From the NCBI RefSeq assembly GCF_964355755.1, contig NC_092676.1, positions 21,904,871-21,968,870 of the forward strand: a stretch of DNA of 64,000 bases, written 5' to 3'. Position 1 is the first letter of the stretch. The number at the start of each line of letters is the position of its first letter. Made by a program: the position numbers and the translations under genes. Below, one piece after another: positions 24,688 through 55,253 of the stretch. Under the pieces are notes generated by a model that was not told the DNA's origin, searched no databases, and saw nothing but the letters and a program-made list of their open reading frames with translations. The DNA comes from Antedon mediterranea (Eukaryota; Animalia; Echinodermata).

Positions 24688-27600
24688 TATGGCAAGCCTC
24701 AGCTGTCTGAAGTATTCAAAATATTATATTATTATATCATTTTTTTATTATATTATATATTGTATTGTAATGAATTATACGTTTTGCATTATATTACTTG
24801 GTTTTAGCATTATATTATATCTATTTCTAATATATTATGTGAAAAATGTAACAAATTATTGACTTTTTGTATTATATTATTTGGTTTTAGCATTATATTA
24901 TGAACATTTAATATTATATTATTAATAAAATACATTATATTATAATATAATTGTATTATATTAAACGCATTTACTTTACTTTATAACATACAACATTATT
25001 ATATTATACGGATTCGTTAGTTATATTATTATTTTGTATGATTTTTATTATACGTCACGGCTTATTTCAGTTCTTCTAACTCTTTCTCTCCCTCCCCCTG
25101 TTCACTAGCAATCAGCGGCCGGCAGAATCTGAATTGTGTGACTGTTGAAGAATAACTACGTACTAGGCCTAGCCTAGGATCACCGGACAGCTACAACTAA
25201 TACTACAATACAATAATACTACTACAATAACTACTACTGCTACTACCTAGGCCTAGCTAGTGAGTAGTAGGTAGCTACTACTAGGCTCTAGGGCGTATGT
25301 ATGATGTTAACTACTAGGGCCTAGGCTAGACCTAGAGGCCTACTAGTACTAGGCTAGGCCTAGACTTAAGTTGTAGTAGGCTAGGGCCGGGCCTGCTGCC
25401 TTAGGCTAGGCTACTACTACTACTAGGCAGCCCATGATGGGTACGAGTAAGCCAAAATTTTGGATATATGTAAACCAAAATTTGGGTACGAGCGTGTTGG
25501 CATGGCATGCATGGGTACGGGTTGACCTGTATCCTTCTAGCTAATCGTACTATGCCTAGGCCTCAAGTAAGTCTACGCTACCCAGTCCGGCTACAATATG
25601 GTCTATTTTGTTTTATAGCTTTATTGATAGCTGGGTTCAAATCTGGGTTGGGACGGCTTTTTCTCATTCTAAAACAGATTTCCTTATCATAATAAAATAA
25701 TATATGAATTTATTTGTAATATTGTAATGTATACATAATATAAGTAATTGCCATTGTCTTTATTACTATTAATTATATATTATACGGTTACCCCTTAATT
25801 ATACTATAGTATAATTTCCTTGTTATATTTTACAATATTTTCTTCCTAATTCTACAATTTTGTCTTTCACAGCACAAATTTATCATACTGAATCATCACA
25901 CACCAAGTCTCATAAATCTCTACTGTATTTGTCCAAGCTACTCCAGCTACATGGTATTGCCTTGAGGCTAAACTACACGGTATACTGGCACTACCATCAT
26001 TCCTGGCTCGTCAACCTGTACCACATAAGCACAGTTTCAGTTTCAGTTTATTTACCATTTCAATTTCTGAACATAAGAGATGAACAACTTATATGGATGG
26101 ATAACCGTAAGAGCGAAGCTCGTTTACCGGTCACCCGTTAGTGCAGTGACATTACAGACAACATAAAGACAGGACAAAGGTGCAATACTTAACAAGGCAT
26201 GTGAACACTTGTGTTTGCAACCCCTTGGATAAAATAATATATTTATATAAAGAAGAAAGTTAGATATTATAATATTTCTTTTTGATCATACAATGATAAT
26301 TTTTAAATTACTTCTTAAGAAGTCATACTACTGATTCAAAATAGTGACTTACACCCTGTGGTCAAGGCTTTATTTGCTCTTATGCTTATTTATTTCCTCC
26401 AACATACAGAGTACATAGGACTTTTTTTATTCATAACTGTTGAATTGTTTCCCAATACATAGTACCTATTGGTATTATATCTAAAAATACAAAGGCGGCT
26501 AACACAGATAGTTCCATATATACAGTACTCTTTTATAAATAAATGTATCTCTCCAAACTACTCCCAACTACCTAATCTAATAATAGTACTATTAGCATAC
26601 TACTATACACTTTGTAGACAAGAAATAAGTTGTATACACTAGAGGACTTATGGTAGTACAGTCGATCGCCCTCTCACTGGCCCGGTCAACATAATCTATA
26701 CCTAGATTATTACAGTAATTAAAGTACATGATTACAGAGTTTTTTTTTTTTTTGCAGAAATCAAAGTTATGTGTATAGAAAGCAGTACTCGTATTAAAAA
26801 CTAAGCAGGTTGCAGGTCTTGAATGCAAACTGGCAGGATATTTTGAATATTTTTTGTTGTTGAAATGATGGAATCCTAACTTCAATTTCCACGAACTGGA
26901 GACGAAGACATATTATGACCCTTTTATTTAAATTTAATTGAATAGACCTCCATGTAAAGTCATTAAAGGCTACATGATTGTTTTATATTTTAATATGTGA
27001 TAGTAGGAAATAATTGTGTATAATGAGGACTATGAATCTGATATTTACTTGCATTCTTATCTTTTTAAAATATTATTTATAATGCCGGTAATGAGTTTAA
27101 AATTTAATTATATGGACTATTTTTGATAATCATCATGTCCTTATAAATTCATTTATACTTTTTTTGTGTAATATAGTTCATATATTATGTATTAAATAAA
27201 TTGGTAAGGCCCTATACTGTTATTATTTAAGGAAAGTTTATATACATTATTATTTTATGCCTACCAATATTAGTATTAATTGTTTATGTAAATATTTTGT
27301 CTAATTGTCTTGATTTTTGTATAGGCCAATGGCATCAATGTTTTTCTCAAAGCAAATTAGCCTAATAATGCCACATTTAGACACATGATTCATTGATTTC
27401 TGATATTCTGTACTTGTGTATGCATTACTAAAATAGTAGTTAATATATTTCATTTATAATGTATGTATAAACATATATTCATATTTTTTTTAAACATTTT
27501 TAAATTTAAAAATTATTACAATACCTATCTACCTTTCTGATATTGTTACTATTATATAATTTTTGAGGCAGCAATAAAAAAAAATTAAAAAATTTATTTG

Positions 27601-30600
27601 ACTTATACTGTACTATGTTAGTTCAGGAGATGAAGTGTGTGTGGGCAGAAACTAGTGTGTTGGAGGTTGGTGGTGTGAGGTGTATAGTTGTCACTTTAAG
27701 ACCTAAATTAGATGTTTTCTGAAGAAAAGAAGTAAGCGGATACGCTTTCAAACAACTCCAAGAAGATTCACACAAAAATAATTACTTTCCAATAAAATAG
27801 TATAACAGTGTATATTACAGTACATTGAATAAACTCGAGCGGAATAATAACGCACATAAAAAACATTCATTTTCTTGTCGAAAAGTGCCCTCTCTAGTTT
27901 TCTATTAATTTATTAATAATTATTTTTCAATTAATGAGTAATATAAACATATTTTTAAAATTTAATGCTGGAAACTGTATCTACTCCTAACAAAGTTTCA
28001 TATCTCCAAATTTCATCAACGTATTCAAAGCACTTAAATAAATTACATTTAACATTACAAATTCAGGTTTTGGATATAATTTTGCTTAAAAACATATACA
28101 AAAAACATCGATAAAAAATACTTTTCGTATTCAAAAACATTTGATACTTGGTATAAATGTTCAATATAGGTTGCTCCATCCATATTGCAAACAAAAAATA
28201 ACTATCAAGCCATATCACTGATTTTTTAAATTTACGTTTTTACAAAATGTACACTTATGAAAGACCATACAATTCCAACTCATTTTTTTCAAGCTAATAA
28301 CTATTTTGAAAAAACGACCAACAAAAAACGTTCATGAATGCAATTTTTTTTTCTGTGAATAGAGCAACCTATAGTGAACATTTATACCAAGTATCAAATG
28401 TTTTTGAATACGAAAAGTATTTTTTATCGATGTTTTTTGTATATGTTTTTAAGCAAAATTCTATCCAAAACCCGAATTTTTATGTTAAATGTGATATTTA
28501 ATATTGAAGTGCTTTGAATACGTTGATGAAATTTGGAGATATGAAACTTTGTTAGGAGTAGAACCAGCTTCCAGCATTGAATATTAAAAATATGTTCATA
28601 TTACTCATTAATTAATAATAATTATTAATAAATTAATAGAAAACTAGAGAGGGCACTTTTCGAAAAGAATATGAATGTTTTTTTATGTGCGTTATTATTC
28701 CGCTCGAGTTTATTCAATGTACTGTAATATACACTGTTATACTACTTAATTGGAAAGTAATTATTTTTGTGTGAATCTTCTTGGAGTTGTTTGAAAGCGT
28801 ATCCGCTTACTTCTTTTCTTCAGAAAACATCTAATTTAGGTCTTAAAGTGACAACTATACACCTCACACCACCAACCTCCAACACACTAGTTTCTGCCCA
28901 CACACACACTTTATCTCCTGAACTAACATAGTACAGTATAACTCAAATTAATTGTTCTAATTTTTTTTTATTGCTGCCTCAAAGAATATTATATAATAGT
29001 AACAATATCAGAAAGGTAGATAGGTATTGTAATCATATTTAAATTTAAAAATGTTTAAAAAAATATGAATATATGTTTATACATACATTATAAATGAAAT
29101 ATATTAACTACTATTTTAGTAATGCATACACAAGTACAGAATATCAGAAATCAATGAATCATGTGTCTAAATGTGGCATTATTAGGCTAATTTGCTTTGA
29201 GAAAAACATTGATGCCATTGGCCTATACAAAAAATCAAGGCAATTAGACAAAATATTTACATAAACAATTAATACTAATATTGGTAGGCATAAAATAATA
29301 GTGTATATAAACTTTCCTTAAATAGTAACAGTATAGGGCCTTACCAATTTACTTAATACATAATATATGAACTATATTACACAAAAGAAATATAAATGAA
29401 TTTATAAGGACATGATGATTATCAAAAATAGTCAATATAATTAAATTTTAAACTCATTACCGGCATTATAAATAATAATTTAAAAAGATGAGAATGCAAG
29501 TAAATATCAGATTCATAGTCCTCATTATACACAATGATTTTCTACTATCAACAATCATGTAGCCTTTAATGAGTTTACATGGAGGTCTATTCAAATAAAT
29601 TTAAATAAAAGGGTTCGTGGAAATTGAAGTTAGGATTCCATCATTTCAACAACAAAAATATTCAAAATATCCTGCCAGTTTGCGTTCAAGACCTGCAACC
29701 TGCTTAGTTTTTAATACGAGTACTGCTTTCTATACACATAACTTTGATTTCTGCAAAAAAAAAAAAACTCTGTAATAATGTACTTTAATTACTGTAATAA
29801 TCTAGGTATAGATTATGTTGACCGGGCCAGTGAGAGGGCGATCGACTGTACTACCATAAGTCCTCTAGGTGTATACAACTTATTTCTTGTCTACAAAGTG
29901 TATAGTAGTATGCTAATAGTACTATTATTAGATTAGGTAGTTGGGAGTAGTTTTGAATCAGTAGTATGACTTCTTAAGAAGTAATTTAAAAATTATCATT
30001 GTATGATCAAAAAGAAATATTATAATATCTAACTTTCTCCATTATATAAATATATTATTTTATCCAAGGGATTGCAAACACGAATGTTCACATGTCTTGT
30101 TAAGTATTGCACCTTTGTCCTGTCTTTGTGTTGTCTGTAATGTCACTGCACTAACGGGTGACCGGTAAACGAGCTTCGCTCTTACGGTTATCCATCCATA
30201 TAAGTTGTTCATCTCTTATGTTCAGAAATTTAAATGGTAAATAAACTGAAACTGAAACTGTGCTTATGTGGTACAGGTTGACGAGACAGGAATGATGGTA
30301 GTGCCAGTATACCGTGTAGTTTAGCCTCAAGGCAATACAATGTAGCTGGAGTAGCTTGGACAAATACAGTAGAGATTTATGAGACTTGGTGTGTGATGAT
30401 TCAGTATGATAAATTTGTGCTGTGAAAGACAAAATTGTAGAATTAGGAAGAAAATATTGTAAAATATAACAAGGAAATTATACTATAGTATAATTAAGGG
30501 GTAACCGTATAATACATAATTAATAGTAATAAAGGCAATGGCAATTACTTATATTATGTATACATTACAATATTACAAATAAATTATATATTATTTTATT

Positions 30601-31659
30601 ATAAGGAAATCTGTTTTAGAATGAGAAAAAGCCGTCCCAACCCAGATTTGAACCCAGCTATCAATAAAGCTATAATTAAACAAAATAGACCATATTGTAG
30701 CCGGACTGGGTAGCGTAGACTTACTTGAGGCCTAGGCATAGTACGATTAGCTAGAAGGATACAGGTCAACCCGTACCCATGCCATGCCAACACGCTCGTA
30801 CCCAAATTTTGGTTTACATATATCCAAAATTTTGGCTTACTCGTACCCATCATGGGCTGCCTAGTAGTAGTAGTAGTAGCCTAGCCTAGCCTAAGGCAGC
30901 AGGCCCGGCCCTAGCCTACTACAACTTAAGTCTAGGCCTAGCCTAGTACTAGTAGGCCTCTAGGCCTAGCCTAGGCCCTACCTAGTAGTAGTTAACATGG
31001 GAATCCGTTAACATCATACATACGCCCAGAGCCTAGTAGTAGCTACCTACTACTCACTAGCTAGGCCTAGGTAGTAGCAGTAGTAGTTATTGTAGTAGTA
31101 TTATTGTATTGTAGTATTAGTTGTAGCTGTCCGGTGATCCTTGGTCCTTGTCTAGATCCCCTAGTTGGTCTAGGCTAGGCCTAGTACGTAGTTATTCTTC
31201 AACAGTCACACAATTCCGATTCTGCCGGCCACTGATTGCTAGTGAACAGGGGGAGGGAGAGAAAGAGTTAGAAGAACTGAAATAAGCCGTGACGTATAAT
31301 AAACATCATACAAAATAATAGTATAACTAACGAATCCGTATAATATAATAATGTTGTATGTTATAAAGTAAAGTAAATGCGTTTAATATAATACAATTAT
31401 ATTATAATATAATGTATTTTATTAATAATATAATATTAAATGTTCATAATATAATGCTAAAACCAAATAATATAATACAAAACGTCAATAATTTGTTACA
31501 TTTTTCACATAATATATTAGAAATAGATATAATATAATGCTAAAACCAAGTAATATAATCCAAAACGTATAATTCATTACAATACAATATATAATATAAT
31601 AAAAAAATGATATAATAATATAATATTTTGAATACTTCAGACAGCTGAGGCTTGCCATA
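24688..31659 (+). mobile_element. Giant foldback element E1 (6972 bp), non-autonomous, IS3EU-like
   Basis: Ends TATGGCAAGCCTCAGCTGTCTGAAG / CTTCAGACAGCTGAGGCTTGCCATA; TSD CTCCTT at 24682-24687 and 31660-31665; arms of ~3.3-3.5 kb around a ~185-bp spacer at ~28176-28360. Confidence 0.92.
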
Positions 31660-32313
31660 CTCCTTCGTATTAAGATAAATACGGTTTTTCTTATTGGTTT
31701 TACAATTTATTCAAATGTTTGTTTGATTTTCATTCTACTTTGTTATTGTCCATTTATATGTTTTATAGTATATTATTTATTATCTTAATACTAAATAAGT
31801 ACCGTACGGTACTGGATTACACTTAACTTCAATGTCAAGTTTCCGAGTTATTTAATTTAAAATCAAAATAACTAATAGTCCGTGAACAAAGGTGAAATAA
31901 ACTGTTGTCATGTCACATCTTTGTTTTGTTTCGTTGGATAGAAATTCTGAATCTATTTTATTTTTAGTAGTTTACATTTCTGTTTTTCGTAAAAAGGTAT
32001 CATTTGCATGGCGTTCAAAATCATTTGCATTTTTGTCAAAGCGGGTACCACACAATATATAGCCATCTGTGCACAATGCCAATGTTAATTGGCATGCCTT
32101 TCCCTTTGAACCTCAGATGAAGTGCAGCAGCAAACAGAATGTTTTCATTTGATATTATCATACAGTGAAAAGATCTTAAGAATAAAAAAAAAAAAATAAG
32201 ATCAATTAGTTTTCCTCAAATAAAGTTTACACGAAATAAAAAAAAGTCAGTGTCCTACTGCTGCCTTTACTACCTTTACAAACTACCAATCGATATTGTA
32301 GAGAAACGAATTC

Positions 32314-35300
32314 TATGGCAAGCCTCAGCTGTCTGAAGTATTCAAAATATTATATTATTATATCATTTTTTTATTATATTATATATTGTATTGTAATGAA
32401 TTATACGTTTTGGATTATATTACTTGGTTTTAGCATTATATTATATCTATTTCTAATATATTATGTGAAAAATGTAACAAATTATTGACGTTTTGTATTA
32501 TATTATTTGGTTTTAGCATTATATTATGAACATTTAATATTATATTATTAATAAAATACATTATATTATAATATAATTGTATTATATTAAACGCATTTAC
32601 TTTACTTTATAACATACAACATTATTATATTATACGGATTCGTTAGTTATACTATTATTTTGTATGATGTTTATTATACGTCACGGCTTATTTCAGTTCT
32701 TCTAACTCTTTCTCTCCCTCCCCCTGTTCACTAGCAATCAGTGGCCGGCAGAATCGGAATTGTGTGACTGTTGAAGAATAACTACGTACTAGGCCTAGCC
32801 TAGACCAACTAGGGGATCTAGACAAGGACCAAGGATCACCGGACAGCTACAACTAATACTACAATACAATAATACTACTACAATAACTACTACTGCTACT
32901 ACCTAGGCCTAGCTAGTGAGTAGTAGGTAGCTACTACTAGGCTCTGGGCGTATGTATGATGTTAACGGATTCCCATGTTAACTACGGGAATCCTTAACTA
33001 CTACTAGGTAGGGCCTAGGCTAGGCCTAGAGGCCTACTAGTACTAGGCTAGGCCTAGACTTAAGTTGTAGTAGGCTAGGGCCGGGCCTGCTGCCTTAGGC
33101 TAGGCTAGGCTACTACTACTACTACTAGGCAGCCCATGATGGGTACGAGTAAGCCAAAATTTTGGATATATGTAAACCAAAATTTGGGTACGAGCGTGTT
33201 GGCATGGCATGGGTACGGGTTGACCTGTATCCTTCTAGCTAATCGTACTATGCCTAGGCCTCAAGTAAGTCTACGCTACCCAGTCCGGCTACAATATGGT
33301 CTATTTTGTTTTATAGCTTTATTGATAGCTGGGTTCAAATCTGGGTTGGGACGGCTTTCTCTCATTCTAAAACAGATTTCCTTATAATAAAATAATATAT
33401 AATTTATTTGTAATATTGTAATGTATACATAATATAAGTAATTGCCATTGCCTTTATTACTATTAATTATGTATTATACGGTTACCCCTTAATTATACTA
33501 TAGTATAATTTCCTTGTTATATTTTACAATATTTTCTTCCTAATTCTACAATTTTGTCTTTCACAGCACAAATTTATCATATTGAATCATCACACACCAA
33601 GTCTCATAAATCTCTACTGTATTTGTCCAAGCTACTCCAGCTACATGGTATTGCCTTGAGGCTAAACTACACGGTATACTGGCACTACCATCATTCCTGG
33701 CTCGTCAACCTGTACCACATAAGCACAGTTTCAGTTTCAGTTTATTTACCATTTAAATTTCTGAACATAAGAGATGAACAACTTATATGGATGGATAACC
33801 GTAAGAGCGAAGCTCGTTTACCGGTCACCCGTTAGTGCAGTGACATTACAGACAACACAAAGACAGGACAAAGGTGCAATACTTAACAAGACATGTGAAC
33901 ATTCGTGTTTGCAACCCCTTGGATAAAATAATATATTTATATAATGGAGAAAGTTAGATATTATAATATTTCTTTTTGATCATACAATGATAATTTTTAA
34001 ATTACTTCTTAAGAAGTCATACTACTGATTCAAAATAGTGACTTACACCCTGTGGTCAAGGCTTTCTTTTCTCTTATGCTTATTTCCTCCAACATACAGA
34101 GTACATAGGACTTTTTTTATTCATAACTGTTGAATTGTTTCCCAATACATAGTACCTATTGGTATTATATCTAAAAATACAAAGGCGGCTAACACAGATA
34201 GTTCCATATATACAGTACTCTTTTATAAATAAATGTATCTCTCCAAACTACTCCCAACTACCTAATCTAATAATAGTACTATTAGCATACTACTATACAC
34301 TTTGTAGACAAGAAATAAGTTGTATACACCTAGAGGACTTATGGTAGTACAGTCGATCGCCCTCTCACTGGCCCGGTCAACATAATCTATACCTAGATTA
34401 TTACAGTAATTAAAGTACATTATTACAGAGTTTTTTTTTTTTGCAGAAATCAAAGTTATGTGTATAGAAAGCAGTACTCGTATTAAAAACTAAGCAGGTT
34501 GCAGGTCTTGAACGCAAACTGGCAGGATATTTTGAATATTTTTTGTTGTTGAAATGATGGAATCCTAACTTCAATTTCCACGAACCCTTTTATTTAAATT
34601 TATTTGAATAGACCTCCATGTAAACTCATTAAAGGCTACATGATTGTTGATAGTAGAAAATCATTGTGTATAATGAGGACTATGAATCTGATATTTACTT
34701 GCATTCCCATCTTTTTAAATTATTATTTATAATGCCGGTAATGAGTTTAAAATTTAATTATATTGACTATTTTTGATAATCATCATGTCCTTATAAATTC
34801 ATTTATATTTCTTTTGTGTAATATAGTTCATATATTATGTATTAAGTAAATTGGTAGGGCCCTATACTGTTACTATTTAAGGAAAGTTTATATACACTAT
34901 TATTTTATGCCTACCAATATTAGTATTAATTGTTTATGTAAATATTTTGTCTAATTGCCTTGATTTTTTGTATAGGCCAATGGCATCAATGTTTTTCTCA
35001 AAGCAAATTAGCCTAATAATGCCACATTTAGACACATGATTCATTGATTTCTGATATTCTGTACTTGTGTATGCATTACTAAAATAGTAGTTAATATATT
35101 TCATTTATAATGTATGTATAAACATATATTCATATTTTTTTTAACATTTTTAAATTTAAAAATTATTACAATACCTATCTACCTTTCTGATATTGTTACT
35201 ATTATATAATATTCTTTGAGGCAGCAATAAAAAAAAAATTAGAACAATTAATTTGATTTATACTGTACTATGTTAGTTCAGGAGATGAAGTGTGTGTGGG

Positions 35301-38300: not shown

Positions 38301-39554
38301 GATTCAGTATGATAAATTTGTGCTGTGAAAGACAAAATTGTAGAATTAGGAAGAAAATATTGTAAAATATAACAAGGAAATTATACTATAGTATAATTAA
38401 GGGGTAACCGTATAATATATAATTAATAGTAATAAAGACAATGGCAATTACTTATATTATGTATACATTACAATATTACAAATAAATTCATATATTATTT
38501 TATTATGATAAGGAAATCTGTTTTAGAATGAGAAAAAGCCGTCCCAACCCAGATTTGAACCCAGCTATCAATAAAGCTATAAAACAAAATAGACCATATT
38601 GTAGCCGGACTGGGTAGCGTAGACTTACTTGAGGCCTAGGCATAGTACGATTAGCTAGAAGGATACAGGTCAACCCGTACCCATGCATGCCATGCCAACA
38701 CGCTCGTACCCAAATTTTGGTTTACATATATCCAAAATTTTGGCTTACTCGTACCCATCATGGGCTGCCTAGTAGTAGTAGTAGTAGTAGCCTAGCCTAA
38801 GGCAGCAGGCCCGGCCCTAGCCTACTACAACTTAAGTCTAGGCCTAGCCTAGTACTAGTAGGCCTCTAGGTCTAGCCTAGGCCCTAGTAGTTAACATCAT
38901 ACATACGCCCTAGAGCCTAGTAGTAGCTACCTACTACTCACTAGCTAGGCCTAGGTATTAGTTGTAGTAGTAGTTATTGTAGTAGTATTATTGTATTGTA
39001 GTATTAGTTGTAGCTGTCCGGTGATCCTTGGTCACTTGTCTAGATCCCCTAGTAGGCCAACCCCTAGGCTAGGCCTAGTACGTAGTTATTCTTCAACAGT
39101 CACACAATTCAGATTCTGCCGGCCGCTGATTGCTAAGTGAACAGGGGGAGGGAGAGAAAGAGTTAGAAGAACTGAAATAAGCCGTGACGTATAATAAACA
39201 TCATACAAAATAATAATATAACTAACGAATCCGTATAATATAATAATGTTGTATGTTATAAAGTAAAGTAAATGCGTTTAATATAATACAATTATATTAT
39301 AATATAATGTATTTTATTAATAATATAATATTAAATGTTCATAATATAATGCTAAAACCAAATAATATAATACAAAAAGTCAATAATTTGTTACATTTTT
39401 TACATAATATATTAGAAATATATATAATATAATGCTAAAACCAAGTAATATAATGCAAAACGTATAATTCATTACAATACAATATATAATATAATAAAAA
39501 AATGATATAATAATATAATATTTTGAATACTTCAGACAGCTGAGGCTTGCCATA
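32314..39554 (-). mobile_element. Giant foldback element E2 (7241 bp), left half of the composite
   Basis: Same termini; spacer (~35837-36017) inverted relative to E1; left flank GAATTC, right flank GGTAAC, so no TSD of its own. Confidence 0.92.
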
Positions 39555-39765
39555 GGTAACCGCTGAAAGATACCTCGTTTTGTGCATTCAACACGACCAC
39601 AAGGAACGTGAAGCAAACACTTGCTGCGAGTACGAGTTGGAATATTCAACTTAAACAAAGCAACAAGTGGACAATCATAAACGGAATTGAATGAGTTGTA
39701 TAAAAAAACCATATCAAAAACAACTCTACGATTTTCAAGAGAAATAAGAGAAACATGTTATTATC
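39555..39765 (-). mobile_element. 211-bp CR1/Jockey-group LINE ORF2 3' fragment between E2 and E3
   Basis: Minus-strand SLENRRVVFDMVFLYNSFNSVYDCPLVALFKLNIPTRTRSKCLLHVPCGRVECTKRGIFQRLP aligns by eye with the LINE peptide at ~6740-6930. Confidence 0.78.
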
Positions 39766-42700: not shown

Positions 42701-45700
42701 AAAAATGTATTTGACTTATACTGTACTATGTTAGTTCAGAAGATGAAGTGTGTGTGGGCAGAAACTAGTGTGTTGGAGGTTGGTGGTGTGAGGTGTATAG
42801 TTGTCACTTTAAGACCTAAATTAGATGTTTTCTGAAGAAAAGAAGTAAGCGGATACGCTTTCAAACAACTCCAAGAAGATTCACACAAAAATAATTACTT
42901 TCCAATAAAATAGTATAACAGTGTATATTACAGTACATTGAATAAACTCGAGCGGAATAATAACGCACATAAAAAACATTCATTTTCTTGTCGAAAAGTG
43001 CCCTCTCTAGTTTTCTATTAATTTATTAATAATTATTATCAATTAATGAGTAATATAAACATATTTTTAAAATTTAATGCTGGAAACTGTATCTACTCCT
43101 AACAAAGTTTCATATCTCCAAATTTCATCAACGTATTCAAACCACTTAAATAAATTACATTTAACATTACAAATTCAGGTTTTGGATATAATTTTGCTTA
43201 AAAACATATACAAAAACATCGATAAAAAATACTTTTCGTATTCAAAAACATTTGATACTTGGTATAAATGTTCAATATAGGTTGCTCCATCCATATTGCA
43301 AACAAAAAATAACTATCAAGCCATATCACTGATTTTTTAAATTTACGTTTTTACAAAATGTACACTTATGAAAGACCATACAATTCCAACTCATTTTTTT
43401 CAAGCTAATAACTATTTTGAAAAAACAATCAACAAAAAACGTTCATGAATGCAATTTTTTTCTGTGAATAGAGCAACCTATAGTGAACATTTATACCAAG
43501 TATCAAGTGTTTTTGAATACGAAAAGTATTTTTTATCGATGTTTTTTGTATATGTTTTTAAGCAAAATTCTATCCAAAACCCGAATTTTTATGTTAAATG
43601 TGATATTTAATATTGAAGTGCTTTGAATACGTTGATGAAATTTGGAGATATGAAACTTTGTTAGGAGTAGAACCAGCTTCCAGCATTGAATGTTAAAAAT
43701 ATGTTCATATTACTCATTAATTAATAATAATTATTAATAAATTATTGGAAAACTAGAGAGGGCACTTTTCGAAAAGAAAATGAATGTTTTTTTATGTGCG
43801 TTATTATTCCGCTCAAGTTTATTCAATGTACTGTAATATACACTGTTATACTACTTTATTGGAAAGTAATTATTTTTGTGTGAATCTTCTTGGAGTTGTT
43901 TGAAAGCGTATGCGCTTACTTCTTTTCTTCAGAAAACATCTAATTTAGGTCTTAAAGTGACAACTATACACCTCACACCACCAACCTCCAACACACTAGT
44001 TTCTGCCCACACACACTTCATCTTCTGAACTAACATAGTACAGTATAAATCAAATTAATTGTTCTAATTTTTTTTTTATTGCTGCCTCAAAGAATATTAT
44101 ATAATAGTAACAATATCAGAAAGGTAGATAGGTATTGTAATAATTTTTAAATTTAAAAATGTTAAAAAAAATATGAATATATGTTTATACATACATTATA
44201 AATGAAATATATTAACTACTATTTTAGTAATGCATACACAAGTACAGAATATCAGAAATCAATGAATCATGTGTCTAAATGTGGCATTATTAGGCTAATT
44301 TGCTTTGAGAAAAACATTGATGCCATTGGCCTATACAAAAAATCAAGGCAATTAGACAAAATATTTACATAAACAATTAATACTAATATTGGTAGGCATA
44401 AAATAATAGTGTATATAAACTTTCCTTAAATAGTAACAGTATAGGGCCCTACCAATTTACTTAATACATAATATATGAACTATATTACACAAAAGAAATA
44501 TAAATGAATTTATAAGGACATGATGATTATCAAAAATAGTCAATATAATTAAATTTTAAACTCATTACCGGCATTATAAATAATAATTTAAAAAGATGGG
44601 AATGCAAGTAAATATCAGATTCATAGTCCTCATTATACACAATGATTTTCTACTATCAACAATCATGTAGCCTTTAATGAGTTTACATGGAGGTCTATTC
44701 AAATAAATTTAAATAAAAGGGTTCGTGGAAATTGAAGTTAGGATTCCATCATTTCAACAACAAAAAATATTCAAAATATCCTGCCAGTTTGCGTTCAAGA
44801 CCTGCAACCTGCTTAGTTTTTAATACGAGTACTGCTTTCTATACACATAACTTTGATTTCTGCAAAAAAAAAAAACTCTGTAATAATGTACTTTAATTAC
44901 TGTAATAATCTAGGTATAGATTATGTTGACCGGGCCAGTGAGAGGGCGATCGACTGTACTACCATAAGTCCTCTAGGTGTATACAACTTATTTCTTGTCT
45001 ACAAAGTGTATAGTAGTATGCTAATAGTACTATTATTAGATTAGGTAGTTGGGAGTAGTTTGGAGAGATACATTTATTTATAAAAGAGTACTGTATATAT
45101 GGAACTATCTGTGTTAGCCGCCTTTGTATTTTTAGATATAATACCAATAGGTACTATGTATTGGGAAACAATTCAACAGTTATGAATAAAAAAAGTCCTA
45201 TGTACTCTGTATGTTGGAGGAAATAAGCATAAGAGAAAAGAAAGCCTTGACCACAGGGTGTAAGTCACTATTTTGAATCAGTAGTATGACTTCTTAAGAA
45301 GTAATTTAAAAATTATCATTGTATGATCAAAAAGAAATATTATAATATCTAACTTTCTCCATTATATAAATATATTATTTTATCCAAGGGGTTGCAAACA
45401 CGAATGTTCACATGTCTTGTTAAGTATTGCACCTTTGTCCTGTCTTTGTGTTGTCTGTAATGTCACTGCACTAACGGGTGACCGGTAAACGAGCTTCGCT
45501 CTTACGGTTATCCATCCATATAAGTTGTTCATCTCTTATGTTCAGAAATTTAAATGGTAAATAAACTGAAACTGAAACTGTGCTTATGTGGTACAGGTTG
45601 ACGAGCCAGGAATGATGGTAGTGCCAGTATACCGTGTAGTTTAGCCTCAAGGCAATACCATGTAGCTGGAGTAGCTTGGACAAATACAGTAGAGATTTAT

Positions 45701-46976
45701 GAGACTTGGTGTGTGATGATTCAATATGATAAATTTGTGCTGTGAAAGACAAAATTGTAGAATTAGGAAGAAAATATTGTAAAATATAACAAGGAAATTA
45801 TACTATAGTATAATTAAGGGGTAACCGTATAATACATAATTAATAGTAATAAAGGCAATGGCAATTACTTATATTATGTATACATTACAATATTACAAAT
45901 AAATTATATATTATTTTATTATAAGGAAATCTGTTTTAGAATGAGAGAAAGCCGTCCCAACCCAGATTTGAACCCAGCTATCAATAAAGCTATAAAACAA
46001 AATAGACCATATTGTAGCCGGACTGGGTAGCGTAGACTTACTTGAGGCCTAGGCATAGTACGATTAGCTAGAAGGATACAGGTCAACCCGTACCCATGCC
46101 ATGCCAACACGCTCGTACCCAAATTTTGGTTTACATATATCCAAAATTTTGGCTTACTCGTACCCATCATGGGCTGCCTAGTAGTAGTAGTAGTAGCCTA
46201 GCCTAGCCTAAGGCAGCAGGCCCGGCCCTAGCCTACTACAACTTAAGTCTAGGCCTAGCCTAGTACTAGTAGGCCTCTAGGCCTAGCCTAGGCCCTACCT
46301 AGTAGTAGTTAACATGGGAATCCGTTAACATCATACATACGCCCAGAGCCTAGTAGTAGCTACCTACTACTCACTAGCTAGGCCTAGGTAGTAGCAGTAG
46401 TAGTTATTGTAGTAGTATTATTGTATTGTAGTATTAGTTGTAGCTGTCCGGTGATCCTTGGTCCTTGTCTAGATCCCCTAGTTGGTCTAGGCTAGGCCTA
46501 GTACGTAGTTATTCTTCAACAGTCACACAATTCCGATTCTGCCGGCCACTGATTGCTAGTGAACAGGGGGAGGGAGAGAAAGAGTTAGAAGAACTGAAAT
46601 AAGCCGTGACGTATAATAAACATCATACAAAATAATAGTATAACTAACGAATCCGTATAATATAATAATGTTGTATGTTATAAAGTAAAGTAAATGCGTT
46701 TAATATAATACAATTATATTATAATATAATGTATTTTATTAATAATATAATATTAAATGTTCATAATATAATGCTAAAACCAAATAATATAATACAAAAC
46801 GTCAATAATTTGTTACATTTTTCACATAATATATTAGAAATAGATATAATATAATGCTAAAACCAAGTAATATAATCCAAAACGTATAATTCATTACAAT
46901 ACAATATATAATATAATAAAAAAATGATATAATAATATAATATTTTGAATACTTCAGACAGCTGAGGCTTGCCATA
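39766..46976 (+). mobile_element. Giant foldback element E3 (7211 bp), right half of the composite
   Basis: Same termini; left flank ATTATC; right flank GAATTC (46977-46982) matches the left flank of E2 (32308-32313). Confidence 0.92.
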
Positions 46977-47243
46977 GAATTCGGTGTTTTTAACGTCTAA
47001 AGGTTCCCTTTGATTTTTACGTATGGTTTGTGATTATCGCAATATAAATCCTAACTATACATTGTTATTATTAAAAGTCACATAGAATAATTAATCAAAC
47101 TATACTTGTTTGTGGTAACTTAACTTTAAGAACTTATCGGAAATAAGGGAAACAAAATCCGCTTTCCAGCAATAATATTCAAATTAGTTTGAGAAAAACG
47201 AAATCTTTTAACTACAGACACTTTATAAATATATACCGTATGT

Positions 47244-50200
47244 TATGGCAAGCCTCAGCTGTCTGAAGTATTCAAAATATTATATTATTATATCATTTTC
47301 TTATTATATTATATATTGTATTGTAATGAATTATACGTTTTGCATTATATTACTTGGTTTTAGCATTATATTATATCTACAGTATTTCTAATATATTATG
47401 TGAAAAATGTAACAAATTATTGACTTTTTGTATTATATTATTTGGTTTTAGCATTATATTATGAACATTTAATATTATATTATTAATAAAATACATTATA
47501 TTATAATATAATTGTATTATATTAAACGCATTTACTTTACTTTATAACATACAACATTATTATATTATACGGATTCGTTAGTTATATTATTATTTTGTAT
47601 GATGTTTATTATACGTCACGGCTTATTTCAGTTCTTCTAACTCTTTCTCTCCCTCCCCCTGTTCACTAGCAATCAGCGGCCGGCAGAATCTGAATTGTGT
47701 GACTGTTGAAGAATAACTACGTACTAGGCCTAGCCTAGGATCACCGGACAGCTACAACTAATACTACAATACAATAATACTACTACAATAACTACTACTG
47801 CTACTACCTAGGCCTAGCTAGAGTGAGTAGTAGGTAGCTACTACTAGGCTCTAGGGCGTATGTATGATGTTAACTACTAGGGCCTAGGCTAGGCCTAGAG
47901 GCCTACTAGTACTAGGCTAGGCCTAGACTTAAGTTGTAGTAGGCTAGGGCCGGGCCTGCTGCCTTAGGTTAGGCTACTACTACTACTACTACTAGGCAGC
48001 CCATGATGGGTACGAGTAAGCCAAAATTTTGGATATATGTAAACCAAAATTTGGGTACGAGCGTGTTGGCATGGCATGGGTACGGGTTGACCTGTATCCT
48101 TCTAGCTAATCGTACTATGCCTAGGACTCAAGTAAGTCTACGCTACCCAGTCCGGCTACAATATGGTCTATTTTGTTTTATAGCTTTATTGATAGCTGGG
48201 TTCAAATCTGGGTTGGGACGGTTTTTTCTCATTCTAAAATAGATTTCCTTATCATAATAAAATAATATATGAATTTATTTGTAATATTGTAATGTATACA
48301 TAATAAAGTAATTGCCATTGCCTTTATTAGTAATTACTATTAATTATGTATTATACGGTTACCCCTTAATTATACTATAGTATAATTTCCTTGTTATATT
48401 TTACAATATTTCCTTCCTAATTCTACAATTTTGTCTTTCACAGCACAAATTTATCATACTGAATCATCACACACCAAGTCTCATAAATCTCTACTGTATT
48501 TGTCCAAGCTACTCCAGCTACATGGTATTGCCTTGAGGCTAAACTACACGGTATACTGGCACTACCATCATTCCTGGCTCGTCAACCTGTACCACATAAG
48601 CACAGTTTCAGTTTGAGTTTATTTACCATTTCAATTTCTGAACATAAGAGATGAACAACTTATATGGATGGATAACCGTAAGAGCGAAGCTCGTTTACCG
48701 GTCACCCGTTAGTGCAGTGACATTACAGACAACATAAAGACAGGACAAAGGTGCAATACATAACAGGACATGTGAACACTTGTGTTTGCAACCCTTTGGA
48801 TAAAATAATATATTTATATAATGGAGAAAGTTAGATATTATAATATTTCTTTTTGATCATACAATGATAATTTTTAAATTACTTCTTAAGAAGTCATACT
48901 ACTGATTCAAAATAGTGACTTACACCCTGTGGTCAACGCTTTCTTTGCTCTTATGCTTATTTCCTCCAACATACAGAGTACATAGGACTTTTTTTATTCA
49001 TAACTGTTGAATTGTTTCCCAATACATAGTACCTATGGGTATTATATCTAAAAATACAAAGGCGGCTAACACAGATAGTTCCATATATACAGTACTCTTT
49101 TATAAATAAATGTATCTCTCCAAACTACTCCCAACTACCTAATCTAATAATAGTACTATTAGCATACTACTATACACTTTGTAGACAAGAAATAAGTTGT
49201 ATACACTAGAGGACTTATGGTAGTACAGTCGATCGCCCTCTCACTGGCCCGGTCAACATAATCTATACCTAGATTATTACAGTAATTAAAGTACATTATT
49301 ACAGAGTTTTTTTTTTTTTTTGCAGAAATCAAAGTTATGTGTATAGAAAGCAGTACTCGTATTAAAAACTAAGCAGGTTGCAGGTCTTGAACGCAAACTG
49401 GCAGGATATTTTGAATATTTTTGTTGTTGAAATGATGGAATCCTAACTTCAATTTCCACGAACCCTTTTATTTAAATTTATTTGAATAGACCTCCATGTA
49501 AACTCATTAAAGGCTACATGATTGTTTTATATTTTAATATGTGATAGTAGAAAATCATTGTGTATAATGAGGACTGTGAATCTGATATTTACTTGCATTC
49601 TCATCTTTTTAAATTATTATTTATAATGCCGGTAATGAGTTTAAAATTTAATTATTGACTATTTTTGATAATCATCATGTCCTTATAAATTCATTTATAT
49701 TTCTTTTGTGTAATATAGTTCATATATTATGTATTAAGTAAATTGGTAAGGCCCTATACTGTTACTATTTAAGGAAAGTTTATATACACTATTATTTTAT
49801 GCCTACCAATATTAGTATTTATTGTTTATGTAAATATTTTGTCTAATTGCCTTGATTTTTTGTATTGGCCAATGGCATCAATGTTTTTCTCAAAGCAAAT
49901 TAGCCTAATAATGCCACATTTAGACACATGATTCATTGATTTCTTATATTCTGTACTTGTGTATGCATTACTAAAATAGTAGTTAATATATTTCATTTAT
50001 AATGTATGTATAAACATATATTCATATTTTTTTAAACATTTTTAAATTTAAAAATTATTACAATACCTATCTACCTTTCTGATATTGTTACTATTATATA
50101 ATATTCTTTGAGGCAGCAATAAAAAAAAAATTAGAACAATTAATTTGAGTTATACTGTACTATGTTAGTTCAGGAGATGAAGTGTGTGTGGGCAGAAACT

Positions 50201-53200
50201 AGTGTGTTGGAGGTTGGTGGTGTGAGGTGTATAGTTGTCACTTTAAGACCTAAATTAGATGTTTTCTGAAGAAAAGAAGTAAGCGCATACGCTTTCAAAC
50301 AACTCCAAGAAGATTCACACAAAAATAATTACTTTCCAATAAAGTAGTATAACAGTGTATATTACAGTACATTGAATAAACTCGAGCGGAATAATAACGC
50401 ACATAAAAAAACATTCATTTTCTTTTCGAAAAGTGCCCTCTCTAGTTTTCTATTAATTTATTAATAATTATTATTAATTAATGAGTAATATGAACATATT
50501 TTTAAAATTCAATGCTGGAAGCTGGTTCTACTCCTAACAAAGTTTCATATCTCCAAATTTCATCAACGTATTCAAAGCACTTCAATATTAAATATCACAT
50601 TTAACATAAAAATTCGGGTTTTGGATAGAATTTTGCTTAAAAACATATACAAAAAACATCGATAAAAAATACTTTTCGTATTCAAAAACATTTGATACTT
50701 GGTACAAATGTTCACTATAGGTTGCTCTATTCACAGAAAAAAATTGCATTCAAGAACGTTTTTTGTTGGTCGTTTTTTCAAAATAGTTATTAGCTTGTAA
50801 AAAATGAGTTGGAATTGTATGGTCTTTCATAAGTGTACATTTTGTAAAAACGTAAATTTAAAAAATCAGTGATATGGCTTGATAGTTATTTTTTGTTTGC
50901 AATATGGATGGAGCAACCTATATTGAACATTTATACCAAATATCAAATGTTTTTGAATACGAAAAGTATTTTTTATCGATGTTTTTTGTATATGTTTTTA
51001 AGCAAAATTATATCCAAAACCTGAATTTGTAATGTTAAATGTAATTTATTTAAGTGCTTTGAATACGTTGATGAAATTTGGAGATATGAAACTTTGTTAG
51101 GAGTAGATACAGTTTCCAGCATTAAATTTTAAAAATATGTTTATTTTACTCATTAATTGATAATAATTATTAATAAATTAATAGAAAACTAGAGAGGGCA
51201 CTTTTCGACAAGAAAATGAATGTTTTTTATTTGCGTTATTATTCCGCTCGAGTTTATTCAATGTACTGTAATATACACTGTTACACTATTTTATTGGAAA
51301 GTAATTATTTTGGTGTGAATCTTCTTGGAGTTGTTTGAAAGCGTATCCGCTTACTTCTTTTCTTCAGAAAACATCTAATTTAGGTCTTAAAGTGACAACT
51401 ATACACCTCACACTAGTTTCTGCCCACACACACTTCATCTCCTGAACTAACATAGTACAGTATAAGTCAAATAAATTTTTTAATTTTTTTTTATTGCTGC
51501 CTCAAAAAATATTATATAATAGTAACAATATCAGAAAGGTAGATAGGTATTGTAATAATTTTTAAATTTAAAAATGTTAAAAAAAAATATGAATATATGT
51601 TTATACATACATTATAAATGAAATATATTAACTACTATTTTAGTAATGCATACACAAGTACAGAATATCAGAAATCAATGAATCATGTGTCTAAATGTGG
51701 CATTATTAGGCTAATTTGCTTTGAGAAAAACATTGATACCATTGGCCTATACAAAAATCAAGGGAATTAGACAAAATATTTACATAAACAATTAATACTA
51801 ATATTGGTAGGCATAAAATAATAGTGTATATAAACTTTCCTTAAATAATAACAGTATAGGGCCTTACCAATTTATTTAATACATAATATATGAACTATAT
51901 TACACAAAAAAAGTATAAATGAATTTATAAGGACATGATGATTATCAAAAATAGTCAATATAATTAACTTTTAAACTCATTACCGGCATTATAAATAATA
52001 TTTAAAAAAGATAAGAATGCAAGTAAATATCAGATTCATAGTCCTCATTATACACAATGATTTCCTACTATCACATATTAAAATATAAAACAATCATGTA
52101 GCCTTTAATGACTTTACATGGAGGTCTATTCAAATAAATTTAAATAAAAGGGTCATAATATGTCTTCGTCTCCAGTTCGTGGAAATTGAAGTTAGGATTC
52201 CATCATTTCAACAACAAAAAATATTCAAAATATCCTGCCAGTTTGCATTCAAGACCTGCAACCTGCTTAGTTTTTAATACGAGTACTGCTTTCTATACAC
52301 ATAACTTTGATTTCTGCAACAAAAAAAAACTCTGTAATAATGTACTTTAATTACTGTAATAATCTAGGTATAGATTATGTTGACCGGGCCAGTGAGAGGG
52401 CGATCGACTGTACTACCATAAGTCCTGTAGGTGTATACAACTTATTTCTTGTCTACAAAGTGTATAGTAGTATGCTAATAGTACTATTATTAGATTAGGT
52501 AGTTGGGAGCAGTTTGGAGAGATACATCTATCTATAAAAGAGTACTGTATATATGGAACTATCTGTGTTAGCCACCTTTGTATTTTTAGATATAATACCA
52601 ATAGGTACTATGTATTGGGAAACAATTCAACAGTTATGAATAAAAAAAGTCCTATGTACTCTGTATGTTGGAGGAAATAAGCATAAGAGCAAATAAAGCC
52701 TTGACCACAGGGTGTAAGTCACTATTTTGAATCAGTAGTATGACTTCTTAAGAAGTAATTTAAAAATTATCATTGTTTGATCAAAAAGAAATATTATAAT
52801 ATCTAACTTTCTCCTTTATATAAATATATTATTTTATCCAAGGGGTTGCAAACACAAGTGTTCACATGTCCTGTTATGTATTGCACCTTTGTCCTGTCTT
52901 TATGTTGTCTGTAATGTCACTGTACTAACGGGTGACCGGTAAACGAGCTTCGCTCTTACGGTTATCCATCCATATAAGTTGTTCATCTCTTATGTTCAGA
53001 AATTGAAATGGTAAATAAACTCAAACTGAAACTGTGCTTATGTGGTACAGGTTGACGAGCCAGGAATGATGGTAGTGCCAGTATACCGTGTAGTTTAGCC
53101 TCAAGGCAATACCATGTAGCTGGAGTAGCTTGGACAAATACAGTAGAGATTTATGAGACTTGGTGTGTGATGATTCAGTATGATAAATTTGTGCTGTGAA

Positions 53201-55253
53201 AGACAAAATTGTAGAATTAGGAAGAAAATATTGTAAAATATAACAAGGAAATTATACTATAGTATAATTAAGGGGTAACCGTATAATACATAATTAATAG
53301 TAATAAATGCAATGGCAAATATTATGTATACATTACAATATTACAAATAAATTCATATATTATTTTATTATGATAAGGAAATCTATTTTAGAATGAGAAA
53401 AAGCCGTCCCAACCCAGATTTGAACCCAGCTATCAATAAAGCTATAAAACAAAATAGACCATATTGTAGCCGGACTGGGTAGCGTAGACTTACTTGAGTC
53501 CTAGGTGTTATGCGCGATTTGAACGATTTGCGCAATTTGAAATTGCGCAAAAAAAATCCTTGCGCAATTTGAATTGAAACATGTGTTTCAAATTGCGCAA
53601 GCAACGTATTAAATTGCGCAAGTAATCTGCAAATTGCGCAAGGTTTTTCGACAGATTGTGAAATCATGCACACCCATATTTTTATAGTAATTTCTAAGAA
53701 TGATTCAAAATTAAAGATAAATATCGCATTTCCTTATTTTAGTAGTGCAAATATTGTTATAAGTTAGCATACCGTCGAAGAACCGACGAAGGAAAACGAA
53801 GCGGTGGTGTTCCACCAGGCGGGCGCGGCGTGGGCGGCCGGCTATACTACTCTAGCCTAGCTAGGGTCTGGACTACTGATACTGACTAGGTTTCATGGCC
53901 TAGCTTAAACTAATATTAAAAACTTAATTTTTACATTTATTTTGATTTATTTCAAGTTACAGTGATAATATTATTTAATTGTAATAATAAATGTTATGTA
54001 TTTATTACACACATCTTCGCATTTATTATGTTTTATTTTGAGTTATTTAGTTTCCAATAAATTATTATAATACCGATTGTCTGGTAGAATTTTGTTGCGC
54101 AATTTGAAAATTTACAGTTCGTTTTCAAATTGCGCAAAGGTGTCATATTGCGCAAGAACTATCTTGCGCAATTTACAAATTGTGCAGCGCAATTTAAAAT
54201 TGCGCAAAGATTTTAATTGCGCAATTTGAAATTGCGCAAAAAAATCCTTCCGCAATTTTAAATTGCGCAAGAAAAATTGCGCAAGAATTCTTTGCGCAAT
54301 TTCAAATTGCGCAAGGATTTTTTTGCGCAATTTCAAATTGCGCAAATCGTTCAAATCGCGCATAACACTAGGCCCTAGGCATAGTACGATTAGCTAGAAG
54401 GATACAGGTCAACCAGTACCCATGCCATGCCAACACGCTCGTACCCAAATTTTGGTTTACATATATCCAAAATTTTGGCTTACTCGTACCCATCATGGGC
54501 TGCCTAGTAGAAGTAGTAGTAGTAGCCTAGCCTAAGGCAGCAGGCCCGGCCCTAGCCTACTACAACTTAAGTCTAGGCCTAGCCTAGTACTAGTAGGCCT
54601 CTAGGCCTAGCCTAGGCCCTAGTAGTTAACATCATACATACGCCCTACTAGAGCCTAGTAGTAGCTACCTACTACTCACTCTAGCTAGGCCTAGGTAGTA
54701 GCAGTAGTAGTTATTGTAGTAGTATTATTGTATTGTAGTATTAGTTGTAGCTGTCCGGTGATCCTAGGCTAGGTCTAGTACGTAGTTATTCTTCAACAGT
54801 CACACAATTCAGATTCTGCCGGCCGCTGATTGCTAGTGAACAGGGGGAGGGAGAGAAAGAGTTAGAAGAACTGAAATAAGCCGTGACGTATAATAAACAT
54901 CATACAAAATAATAATATAACTAACGAATCCGTATAATATAATAATGTTGTATGTTATAAAGTAAAGTAAATGCGTTTAATATAATACAATTATATTATA
55001 ATATAATGTATTTTATTAATAATATAATATTAAATGTTCATAATATAATGCTAAAACCAAATAATATAATACAAAAAGTCAATAATTTGTTACATTTTTC
55101 ACATAATATATTAGAAATAGATATAATATAATGCTAAAACCAAGTAATATAATGCAAAACGTATAATTCATTACAATACAATATATAATATAATAAAAAA
55201 ATGATATAATAATATAATATTTTGAATACTTCAGACAGCTGAGGCTTGCCATA
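47244..55253 (-). mobile_element. Giant foldback element E4 (8010 bp including a nested MITE)
   Basis: Same termini; TSD GTATGT at 47238-47243 and 55254-55259; spacer ~50727-50910. Confidence 0.92.
53506..54367. mobile_element. 862-bp Ginger-like MITE nested in the right arm of E4, rich in TTGCGCAA
   Basis: ~65-bp TIRs TGTTATGCGCGATTTGAACG.../...CGTTCAAATCGCGCATAACA; CTAGG on both sides (53501-53505, 54368-54372); absent from the other seven arms. Confidence 0.85.

What the first reader, a model, noticed from the sequence alone, without database searches (positions are those of the whole stretch)
24688..55253. Family of ~7-kb, almost fully palindromic non-coding transposons with IS3EU-type ends
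Seen: four copies (about 29.6 kb in total), each made of two ~3.3-3.6-kb inverted arms around a ~185-bp spacer, alternating + - + - in orientation. They have identical TATGG...CCATA termini, exact 6-bp TSDs (CTCCTT, GAATTC, GTATGT) and no recognisable transposase. Known (recalled, not checked): TAYGG..CCRTA ends with 6-bp TSDs characterise the IS3EU superfamily. Inference: a recently active non-autonomous giant foldback derivative, about 97% inverted repeat, probably formed by mirroring one half of a parent element. It is far larger than usual MITEs and is a potential source of cruciforms and hairpin RNA.
Basis: partly seen in the sequence, partly recalled or inferred. Interest (0 to 1): 0.88.

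Follow-up and report, generated by a model that had tools for sequence, protein, structure and literature searches.

The report
Giant palindromic transposons, one doubled again
Four gene-less, 7-8 kb mirror-image DNA elements sit here with the end signature of a known but little-studied transposon group (IS3EU/GingerRoot), and two of them form a 14.7-kb mirror of mirrors that likely jumped as one piece, which shows how such elements would double into ever larger palindromes.

Summary
Four copies (29,434 bp) have 3.3-3.5-kb arms (one swollen to 4.3 kb), a 183-185-bp spacer and identical TATGG ends. There are only three target duplications: GAATTC encloses copies 2+3 plus a 211-bp piece of another repeat, a 14,663-bp palindrome of palindromes. 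It is not a fold-back artefact: the arms differ at 24 shared sites, and single contigs bridge the centre in another sample and in a second organism. Arm sequence occurs in four coded organisms. The arms exchange sequence: copy 4's outer 1.6 kb is homogenised, and the pair's outer arms differ by 2 substitutions against 12 for the inner arms, as expected if the pair now acts as one transposon. Ends and 6-bp duplication match published IS3EU/GingerRoot; no transposase is present, and no partner could be sought. The copy2|211|copy3 junctions were not seen in listed contigs. This scan has noted similar palindromic IS3EU-type elements in other genomes. Verdict: new variant of a known kind.

The parts
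24688..31659 (-). Copy 1: arm B 24688-28176, spacer 28177-28361 (185 bp), arm A 28362-31659 (212-bp deletion near 29951-29956); CTCCTT on both sides
32314..46976 (.). Composite of 14,663 bp: copy 2 + 211 bp + copy 3, arranged A-B-211-B-A, with GAATTC on both sides; outer ends identical for 672 bp
32314..39554 (+). Copy 2: arm A 32314-35835, spacer 35836-36018 (183 bp), arm B 36019-39554
39555..39765 (.). 211-bp spacer between copies 2 and 3; unique in the window, a piece of a separate abundant repeat in organism A
   Evidence: no second hit in window; depth; one contig continues into non-element DNA at 39553
39766..46976 (-). Copy 3: arm B 39766-43287, spacer 43288-43470, arm A 43471-46976; sister of copy 2
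47244..55253 (+). Copy 4: arm A 47244-50727, spacer 50728-50910, arm B 50911-55253; GTATGT on both sides; outer 1.6 kb of its two arms homogenised
53506..54373 (.). About 870-bp unrelated TIR element with TTGCGCAA arrays, inserted in arm B of copy 4 only
32314..32640 (+). Terminus (TATGG, 56 bp identical in all 8 ends) and subterminal array: ATTATATTA 10 times on this strand within 320 bp (3 times in 33 kb outside the cluster, both strands), 21/42/83-bp periods; likely transposase-binding region; present at every end
   Evidence: function inferred
35836..36018 (+). Central non-palindromic spacer; bridged by single contigs in organism A (run X2) and organism C (run X8); no fold beyond shuffles
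36590..36635 (-). Short tract in copy 2 arm B that carries arm-A alleles, including one specific to c2A/c3A (conversion tract, at least 44 bp; limits approximate)
24059..24491 (+). Left arm of an older 87% inverted repeat that encloses the whole cluster (partner 56181-56611)
56119..56611 (-). Right arm of that older inverted repeat; its inner part (56119-56189) resembles the empty target of copy 1, with the hexamer present once
   Evidence: score 61; 0 of 1000 mononucleotide shuffles reach it

Best explanation
These are gene-less, 7-kb palindromic DNA elements with TATGG ends and 6-bp target duplications, likely moved by an IS3EU/GingerRoot transposase encoded elsewhere, and copies 2 and 3 with the 211 bp between them likely inserted together as one 14.7-kb composite. 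Shown: anatomy, three target duplications, lack of coding sequence, presence of the same centre in a second organism, and sequence exchange between arms. Inferred steps: (1) the transposase needs only the terminus and the subterminal ATTATATTA array, so an element with the same end twice stays mobile; (2) the long arms grew, and stay alike, because a broken end is repaired by copying the other end inwards from the terminus, as proposed for Galileo; (3) one copy inserted into a host repeat, hopped 211 bp in inverted orientation, and the pair was later cut at its two outer ends and inserted at GAATTC, after which the same copying made the new outer arms alike; (4) a non-palindromic spacer of about 200 bp at both levels makes the palindromes tolerable in double-stranded DNA. 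Component odds: real mobile palindromic family 0.95; IS3EU/GingerRoot-mobilised 0.8; composite moved as a unit 0.7; end-anchored repair copying as origin of the arms 0.55.
For: TSD pattern. Both inner ends of the pair are intact to the last base, as at transposition junctions. The 211 bp belongs to another repeat that continues without the element in one contig. c2 and c3 are sisters (bootstrap 100). Outer arms of the pair differ at 2 sites against 12 for the inner arms (p=0.013; 0 v 12 in the outer 2.9 kb, p=5e-4; after dropping two patches, which removed 31 of 43 B differences and 1 of 3 A differences), while 4 other copy pairs show A about equal to B (18/21, 18/25, 33/37, 37/40). Copy 4: arms 0.65% apart in the outer 1.6 kb and 3.0% inside (p=3e-7); its two arms group together there (99%) but split into A and B inside (100%). 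Centre bridged with 43+43 bp (X2) and 67+67 bp (X8) of arm; in X8 inner-arm depth 44.1 is twice the centre's 22. Published signature: TA..TA, 6-bp TSD (PMC10045372), TAYGG..CCRTA (PMC12730594). TIR extension by repair from the other TIR proposed for Galileo (PMC3573991).
Against: No transposase or autonomous partner was found or could be sought (no genome held). No listed contig bridges either junction of the 211-bp spacer (32 pieces shown, 867 not shown). GAATTC is self-complementary, so it reads both as a direct and as an inverted repeat, and the mirror extends one base further. Copy 1, the pair's nearest relative, lies only 650 bp away, which is odd if the pair came from a distant donor site. 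Copy 3 shows no outer-inner difference between its own arms (2.69% v 2.69%). The 1.6-kb cut was chosen after seeing the data. Exchange within a copy cannot be told from exchange between copies. The best 11-base terminal match among the 13 IS3EU rows seen is 9 of 11.
Confidence: 0.68

Rival explanations
1. Copies 2+3 did not move together: the pair formed in place, for example by a second insertion next to the first at the same target followed by repair of the palindrome centre with 211 bp of filler, or the pair is a local assembly error.
For: Copy 1, the nearest relative, is 650 bp away. One contig of run X2 (depth 3.4) shows two termini 6 bp apart, so abutting ends exist in organism A (table 5c). 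The junctions are not seen in listed contigs.
Against: Both inner termini are intact to the base, which centre repair would usually not leave (general knowledge). c2B and c3B differ at 12 scattered sites plus two patches, which a mirrored chimeric read would not give.
Confidence: 0.2
2. The palindromes are made and homogenised by transposition itself: IS3EU would use the copy-out/paste-in route of bacterial insertion sequences, the copied single strand folds back on itself, and the arms are corrected against each other from the joined ends.
For: Homogenisation starts at the outer ends of whatever unit carries the TSD. One contig shows a TIR-TIR junction with a 6-bp spacer, the form of copy-out circle junctions (PMC7780238 passages on ISCth4, IS256, IS911, IS2). 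The scan's other palindromes with 6-bp TSDs have IS3EU- or Polinton-type ends (unchecked notes).
Against: A single low-depth contig with unseen side lengths and a 15-bp truncated end; adjacent insertion explains it too. No paper seen shows the IS3EU mechanism, and IS3EU/GingerRoot groups with IS481EU without strong support (PMC10045372).
Confidence: 0.15
3. The 7-kb unit itself arose as the 14.7-kb unit did: two inverted 3.5-kb monomers about 170 bp apart, whose inner ends have since decayed (recursive doubling).
For: Spacers of similar size at both levels (183 and 211 bp). Weak arm homology ends at a TATGG at 36011 in arm B of all four copies.
Against: The inner ends align with the true terminus no better than shuffles (205-1521 of 2000), lack the ATTATATTA array, and only one of the two has TATGG; TAYGG occurs 12 times on one strand of the copy. 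In organism C inner-arm depth is exactly twice the centre's, leaving no room for free monomers.
Confidence: 0.12
4. The elements are mobilised by another 6-bp-TSD group (Polinton/Maverick or Ginger2).
For: These groups also make 6-bp duplications (PMC6839031); no transposase links the family to IS3EU.
Against: Their ends are given as AG..TC and TG..CA in that paper, not TATGG..CCATA.
Confidence: 0.07
5. The palindromes are artefacts of amplification or assembly (fold-back chimeras).
For: Palindromes with near-identical arms are a known artefact class (general knowledge); no raw long reads were available.
Against: 24 substitutions separate all four A arms from all four B arms; three different TSDs; the centre is bridged in another sample and study, and in another organism.
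Confidence: 0.02

Closest known systems
IS3EU/GingerRoot superfamily (PMC10045372, PMC12730594, PMC6839031; passages read, plus 13 rows of one supplement table)
   Same: TA..TA / TAYGG..CCRTA ends, 6-bp TSD, size within the 3.9-12.9-kb range of GingerRoot; terminal 11 bases 9 of 11 like IS3EU-1_TuIn.
   Different: TIRs are given as over 30 bp (fungi) or 100-150 bp (clubmoss); here 3.3-3.5 kb, filling 97% of the element. No transposase. No composite described in the passages read.
Galileo two-TIR and recombinant-TIR copies, Foldback-like elements (PMC3573991, PMC4168063; passages read)
   Same: Non-autonomous copies made almost only of TIRs, subterminal tandem repeats, internal sequence and secondary insertions recruited into both TIRs, repair from the other TIR proposed.
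   Different: P superfamily, 7-bp TSD; longest TIRs 1.26 kb, about a third of these arms.
Composite or macro-transposons (two nearby elements moving by their outer ends; recalled: Tn10, maize Ac/Ds; no call)
   Same: Two inverted copies with captured DNA between them and one TSD outside.
   Different: Here each partner is itself a palindrome, the cargo is only 211 bp, and the outer arms have been homogenised.
Palindromic IS3EU-type elements noted by this scan in other genomes (e1-9570859, e1-9058212, e1-9364906; unchecked AI notes)
   Same: TATGG-type ends, 6-bp TSD, near-perfect mirror, no genes.
   Different: No sequence look-alike to this family; no note on a composite pair.

Membership tests
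IS3EU/GingerRoot | TA..TA termini, TAYGG..CCRTA | tested here: met
   All 8 ends TATGG/CCATA; definition
IS3EU/GingerRoot | 6-bp target site duplication | tested here: met
   c1 and c4 exact and non-palindromic; third around the pair; paralogous empty-site look-alike for c1. Copies elsewhere not tested.
IS3EU/GingerRoot | Terminal inverted repeats over 30 bp | tested here: met
   56 bp identical in all ends; arms of 3.3-3.5 kb
IS3EU/GingerRoot | Repbase rule for non-autonomous families: terminal bases 1-11 match a member with at most 1 mismatch | tested here: inconclusive
   Rule in PMC4455052. Best 9 of 11 among 13 fungal IS3EU rows seen, of about 27 in the table; animal families not available.
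IS3EU/GingerRoot | IS3/IS481/integrase-like DDE transposase in an autonomous member with the same ends | not testable with these tools
   None in these copies, as expected for non-autonomous ones; no genome held
Foldback-like element (structural class) | Long TIRs with internal tandem repeats, non-coding centre | tested here: met
Galileo / P superfamily | 7-8-bp TSD | tested here: not met
   6 bp here; Galileo 7-8 bp
Polinton/Maverick | AG..TC termini as given in PMC6839031 | tested here: not met
Composite transposon (copies 2+3) | One TSD outside the pair, none around each partner | tested here: met
   caveat: the hexamer is self-complementary
Composite transposon (copies 2+3) | Junctions confirmed in reads, donor site or second insertion known | tested here: inconclusive
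   No bridging piece among the 32 shown, 867 not shown

The most novel reading that the evidence does not exclude
IS3EU-type transposition is a self-repeating palindrome builder: a short inverted hop plus use of the outer ends doubles an element into a larger mirror with a spacer of about 200 bp, and copying from the joined ends then makes the new outer arms identical. The window would hold two rounds of this (7 kb, then 14.7 kb), and the recurrence of such palindromes across genomes would reflect a copy-out, fold-back mechanism not described for eukaryotic transposons.
Probability: 0.2. Interest if true: 0.8.

Novelty: new variant of a known kind. Interest (0 to 1): 0.52.

Why it matters
It gives a dated, within-window record of how a transposon builds and maintains multi-kilobase palindromes: arm exchange anchored at the ends, and a second round of doubling that appears to have moved as a unit. 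IS3EU structure and mechanism are described as largely unexplored (PMC11934779), and a young family shared by related organisms is a handle for finding the partner transposase and testing cut-and-paste against copy-out. Such elements would be fold-back substrates in single-stranded DNA, sources of long double-stranded RNA if transcribed, and easy to mistake for assembly errors.

Tried and rejected
No whole genome is held, so copy number, other TSDs and a partner transposase could not be searched. Terminal patterns: 0 matches in metagenome contigs (24-mer) and viral contigs (20-mer). Pfam: 0 of 49 frames (30 of the 45 frames plus 19 others) and 0 of 38 shorter frames reach a cut-off. Rfam: 0 matches in 24000-56700. 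No RNA holder listed; this says nothing on expression. My first gradient test (1 v 23 fixed differences, outer v inner half) was confounded: it is largely one homogenisation event in copy 4, and 12 sites that separate c1A-c3A from the rest lie in the outer part. The inner TATGG as a relic end: no better than shuffles. A fourth TATGG/6-bp candidate (36011-43295) is a by-product of the c2/c3 mirror and a self-complementary hexamer. The self-complementarity test of the 211 bp had an unfair control and is not used. Depth sums in runs X1, X3, X6 are not copy numbers. Flank DNA has no cover in organism C and parts of the arm have none in C and D; nothing is drawn from that. GingerRoot supplement: 0 hits for terminal motifs in the one file held. 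Literature searches for a described match found none; they cover open-access text only, and Repbase and Dfam could not be searched.
Full report
Setting. The window is 32% G+C, holds no N, and is rich in repeats, with no frame above 276 aa. It looks like a eukaryotic, probably invertebrate, genome (inference, not tested). No whole genome is held.

Observation. A self-comparison shows four related palindromes: c1 24688-31659, c2 32314-39554, c3 39766-46976 and c4 47244-55253, 29,434 bp in all, alternating in orientation. Each has two arms, called A and B by the side of the spacer, of 3,298-3,536 bp and a 183-185-bp spacer. Arm B of c4 is 4,343 bp because of a ~870-bp insertion, and arm A of c1 lacks 212 bp. 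All 8 ends share 56 identical bases starting TATGG; the terminal 16-mer occurs 8 times against 0.23 expected. Behind each end lies an array with ATTATATTA 10 times in 320 bp. None of the 58 frames of 30 aa or more over one arm and the centre reaches a Pfam cut-off, and Rfam finds nothing.

Three scars, not four. CTCCTT flanks c1 and GTATGT flanks c4, each about 5e-4 by chance. A look-alike of c1's empty target at 56119-56189 has the hexamer once (score 61, 0 of 1000 mononucleotide shuffles). GAATTC lies left of c2 and right of c3, while the inner flanks are GGTAAC and ATTATC. So c2, 211 bp and c3 form a 14,663-bp unit, A-B-211-B-A, that is itself a palindrome. GAATTC is self-complementary and the mirror runs one base further; a target duplication is still the simpler reading, because a mirrored flank has no reason to stop after 7 bases. 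The 211 bp has no second hit in the window. In organism A it is deeper than the element's ends (2,696 v 435-1,005 in X3; 532 v 155-221 in X2), and one contig continues from it into non-element DNA, so it is a piece of another repeat.

Not an artefact. A and B arms differ by 1.9-2.8%, A from A by 0.1-1.2% and B from B by 0.8-1.7%; 24 substitutions separate all A from all B. A run search listed 21 runs in 9 studies and 6 coded organisms, all as contigs, 4 with half the words or more; I laid 6 of them. Arm and spacer are covered in 30 of 30 bins in organisms A and B and 24 of 30 in C; the second stretch is covered in 27 of 30 bins in C and D. One contig of X2 (organism A, other sample and study) spans the spacer with 43 bp of arm on each side, and one of X8 (organism C) with 67 bp on each side. 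The symmetric stops are what a hairpin gives in a word graph (general knowledge). In X8 the inner-arm depth is 44.1 against 22 for the centre. Terminal contigs of C and D differ from c2 by 8 letters in about 580, plus gaps. In D the one listed centre contig leaves the spacer at 35911, so the same centre is not shown there. In X2 the centre contigs (29.6 and 13.6) are much shallower than the terminal one (152.9), so many ends probably belong to other derivatives. No listed piece bridges the 211-bp junctions (32 shown, 867 not), so the composite rests on the assembly.

History of the copies. c2 and c3 are sisters (100%), and c1 is closer to them than c4 is (52-60 v 78-95 substitutions). At 5 of the 12 sites specific to c1A, c2A and c3A that the table showed, run X1 has their allele at depth 0-713 against 75,000-233,000 for the other, a rough hint that c1-c3 are a small local lineage. 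All three insertions fall within about 0.9 kb of original host DNA, inside an older 87% inverted repeat.

The arms exchange sequence. In c4 the arms differ by 0.65% in the outer 1.6 kb and 3.0% inside (p=3e-7; cut chosen after viewing). c4A and c4B share 5 substitutions found in no other arm, all in the outer part, and group there at 99%, while inside all A and all B arms split at 100%. c1 and c2 show a weaker outer-inner difference and c3 none. c2B carries a tract of at least 44 bp with A alleles, one of them specific to c2A/c3A. The outer arms of the pair, c2A and c3A, differ at 3 sites and the inner arms at 43. After dropping a diverged patch (480-770) and the tract (2895-2975), the counts are 2 and 12 (p=0.013; 0 and 12 in the outer 2.9 kb), whereas four other copy pairs give similar A and B counts. 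The pair's outer arms were therefore made alike after c2 and c3 had diverged, as if they were the TIRs of one element. Of the 24 fixed A/B sites, 15 appear in the tables for organism C: 6 show only the A letter, 5 only the B letter, 3 both and 1 neither. That fits concerted evolution of arms in each lineage, but contigs drop variants, so it is weak.

How it likely works. Shown: anatomy, scars, absence of genes, spread, arm exchange. Inferred: a transposase supplied in trans binds the end and its array; repair of a broken end from the other end extends and homogenises the arms, as proposed for Galileo, whose longest TIRs are 1.26 kb (PMC3573991, passages; PMC4168063, passages); a 211-bp inverted hop and use of the outer ends made the composite. 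In yeast a 200-bp spacer lowers rearrangements about 20-fold against 12 bp, but not in single-stranded DNA (PMC10164571, passages), and the spacer here has no fold of its own (z +0.77). Fold-back of single strands is thus more likely than cruciforms. Against the composite's travel: c1 lies 650 bp away, and the junctions are unconfirmed. One X2 contig (depth 3.4) has two termini 6 bp apart, which fits either adjacent insertion or a copy-out junction (PMC7780238, passages); it is one row with unseen side lengths. The idea that the 7-kb unit is itself a decayed composite failed its test but is not excluded.

Comparison with the known. IS3EU families have TA..TA ends and usually 6-bp TSDs and form one lineage with GingerRoot (PMC10045372, passages); fungal ones end TAYGG..CCRTA (PMC12730594, passages and 13 supplement rows); GingerRoot TIRs are 100-150 bp (PMC6839031, passages). 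Ends and TSD are met. The Repbase 11-base rule (PMC4455052, passages) is inconclusive at 9 of 11, and the transposase is untestable. It works like a Foldback-type non-autonomous element, and is a probable, not proven, IS3EU/GingerRoot member. Searches (listings only) found no description of kilobase-armed IS3EU elements or of such a composite; Repbase, Dfam, subscription journals and bioRxiv supplements were not visible. This scan has noted three palindromic IS3EU-type elements and one Polinton-ended one in other genomes (unchecked), none alike in sequence, and no composite.

Verdict. Real; a new variant of a known kind. The single 7-kb palindrome is a recurring form. The doubled unit and the end-anchored homogenisation are the added value. 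Interest 0.52.

Noticed in passing
window 24059-24491 and 56119-56611: An older inverted repeat (87%, about 430-490 bp) encloses the whole cluster; copy 1 seems to sit in the inner part of its left arm. No TSD seen at its outer ends.
   Followed up: partly
window 53506-54373: A ~870-bp TIR element with TTGCGCAA arrays and a G+C-rich centre, inserted in one arm of copy 4 after that copy's arms were homogenised or not copied across; its ends look hAT-like (recalled), TSD not resolved.
   Followed up: partly
window 33379 (run X8): A contig of organism C leaves the arm just after a pyrimidine-rich CAG and continues with 66 other letters that begin with an ATG-bearing open stretch: a possible exon of a coding relative. 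Too short to search.
   Followed up: no
window 39032 to 39762 (run X2, table 5c): One low-depth contig holds two element termini 6 bp apart, one cut to 15 bp: adjacent insertion or an end-to-end junction.
   Followed up: partly
window 33702-34014 and 33985-34142: Contigs of other copies skip these 313-bp and 158-bp segments; in organism D forms with and without the 158 bp have similar depth (9.0 and 10.1). The arm is a mosaic of indels and repeat fragments.
   Followed up: no
window about 32967-33005: c1A, c2A and c3A share a 23-bp insertion and c2A has 16 bp more that mirror part of it, like a template-switch product.
   Followed up: no
window 4745-18991: A degenerate tandem array of four to five units of about 3.5 kb (71-95% alike; 7707-9700 and 11214-13218 at 95%), with frames up to 276 aa (14300-15130) and no Pfam match; possibly a duplicated exon or gene array.
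   Followed up: no
window 58041-58890: Tandem array of a ~150-bp unit, 5.3 copies, 86% alike, higher G+C.
   Followed up: no
window 15839-16313 and 930-1022: Two small imperfect palindromes (80%), probably MITEs.
   Followed up: no
TSDs and flanks: Several target hexamers begin with G or end with C, a hint of a G-N4-C preference; too few and biased by how loose ends are listed.
   Followed up: no
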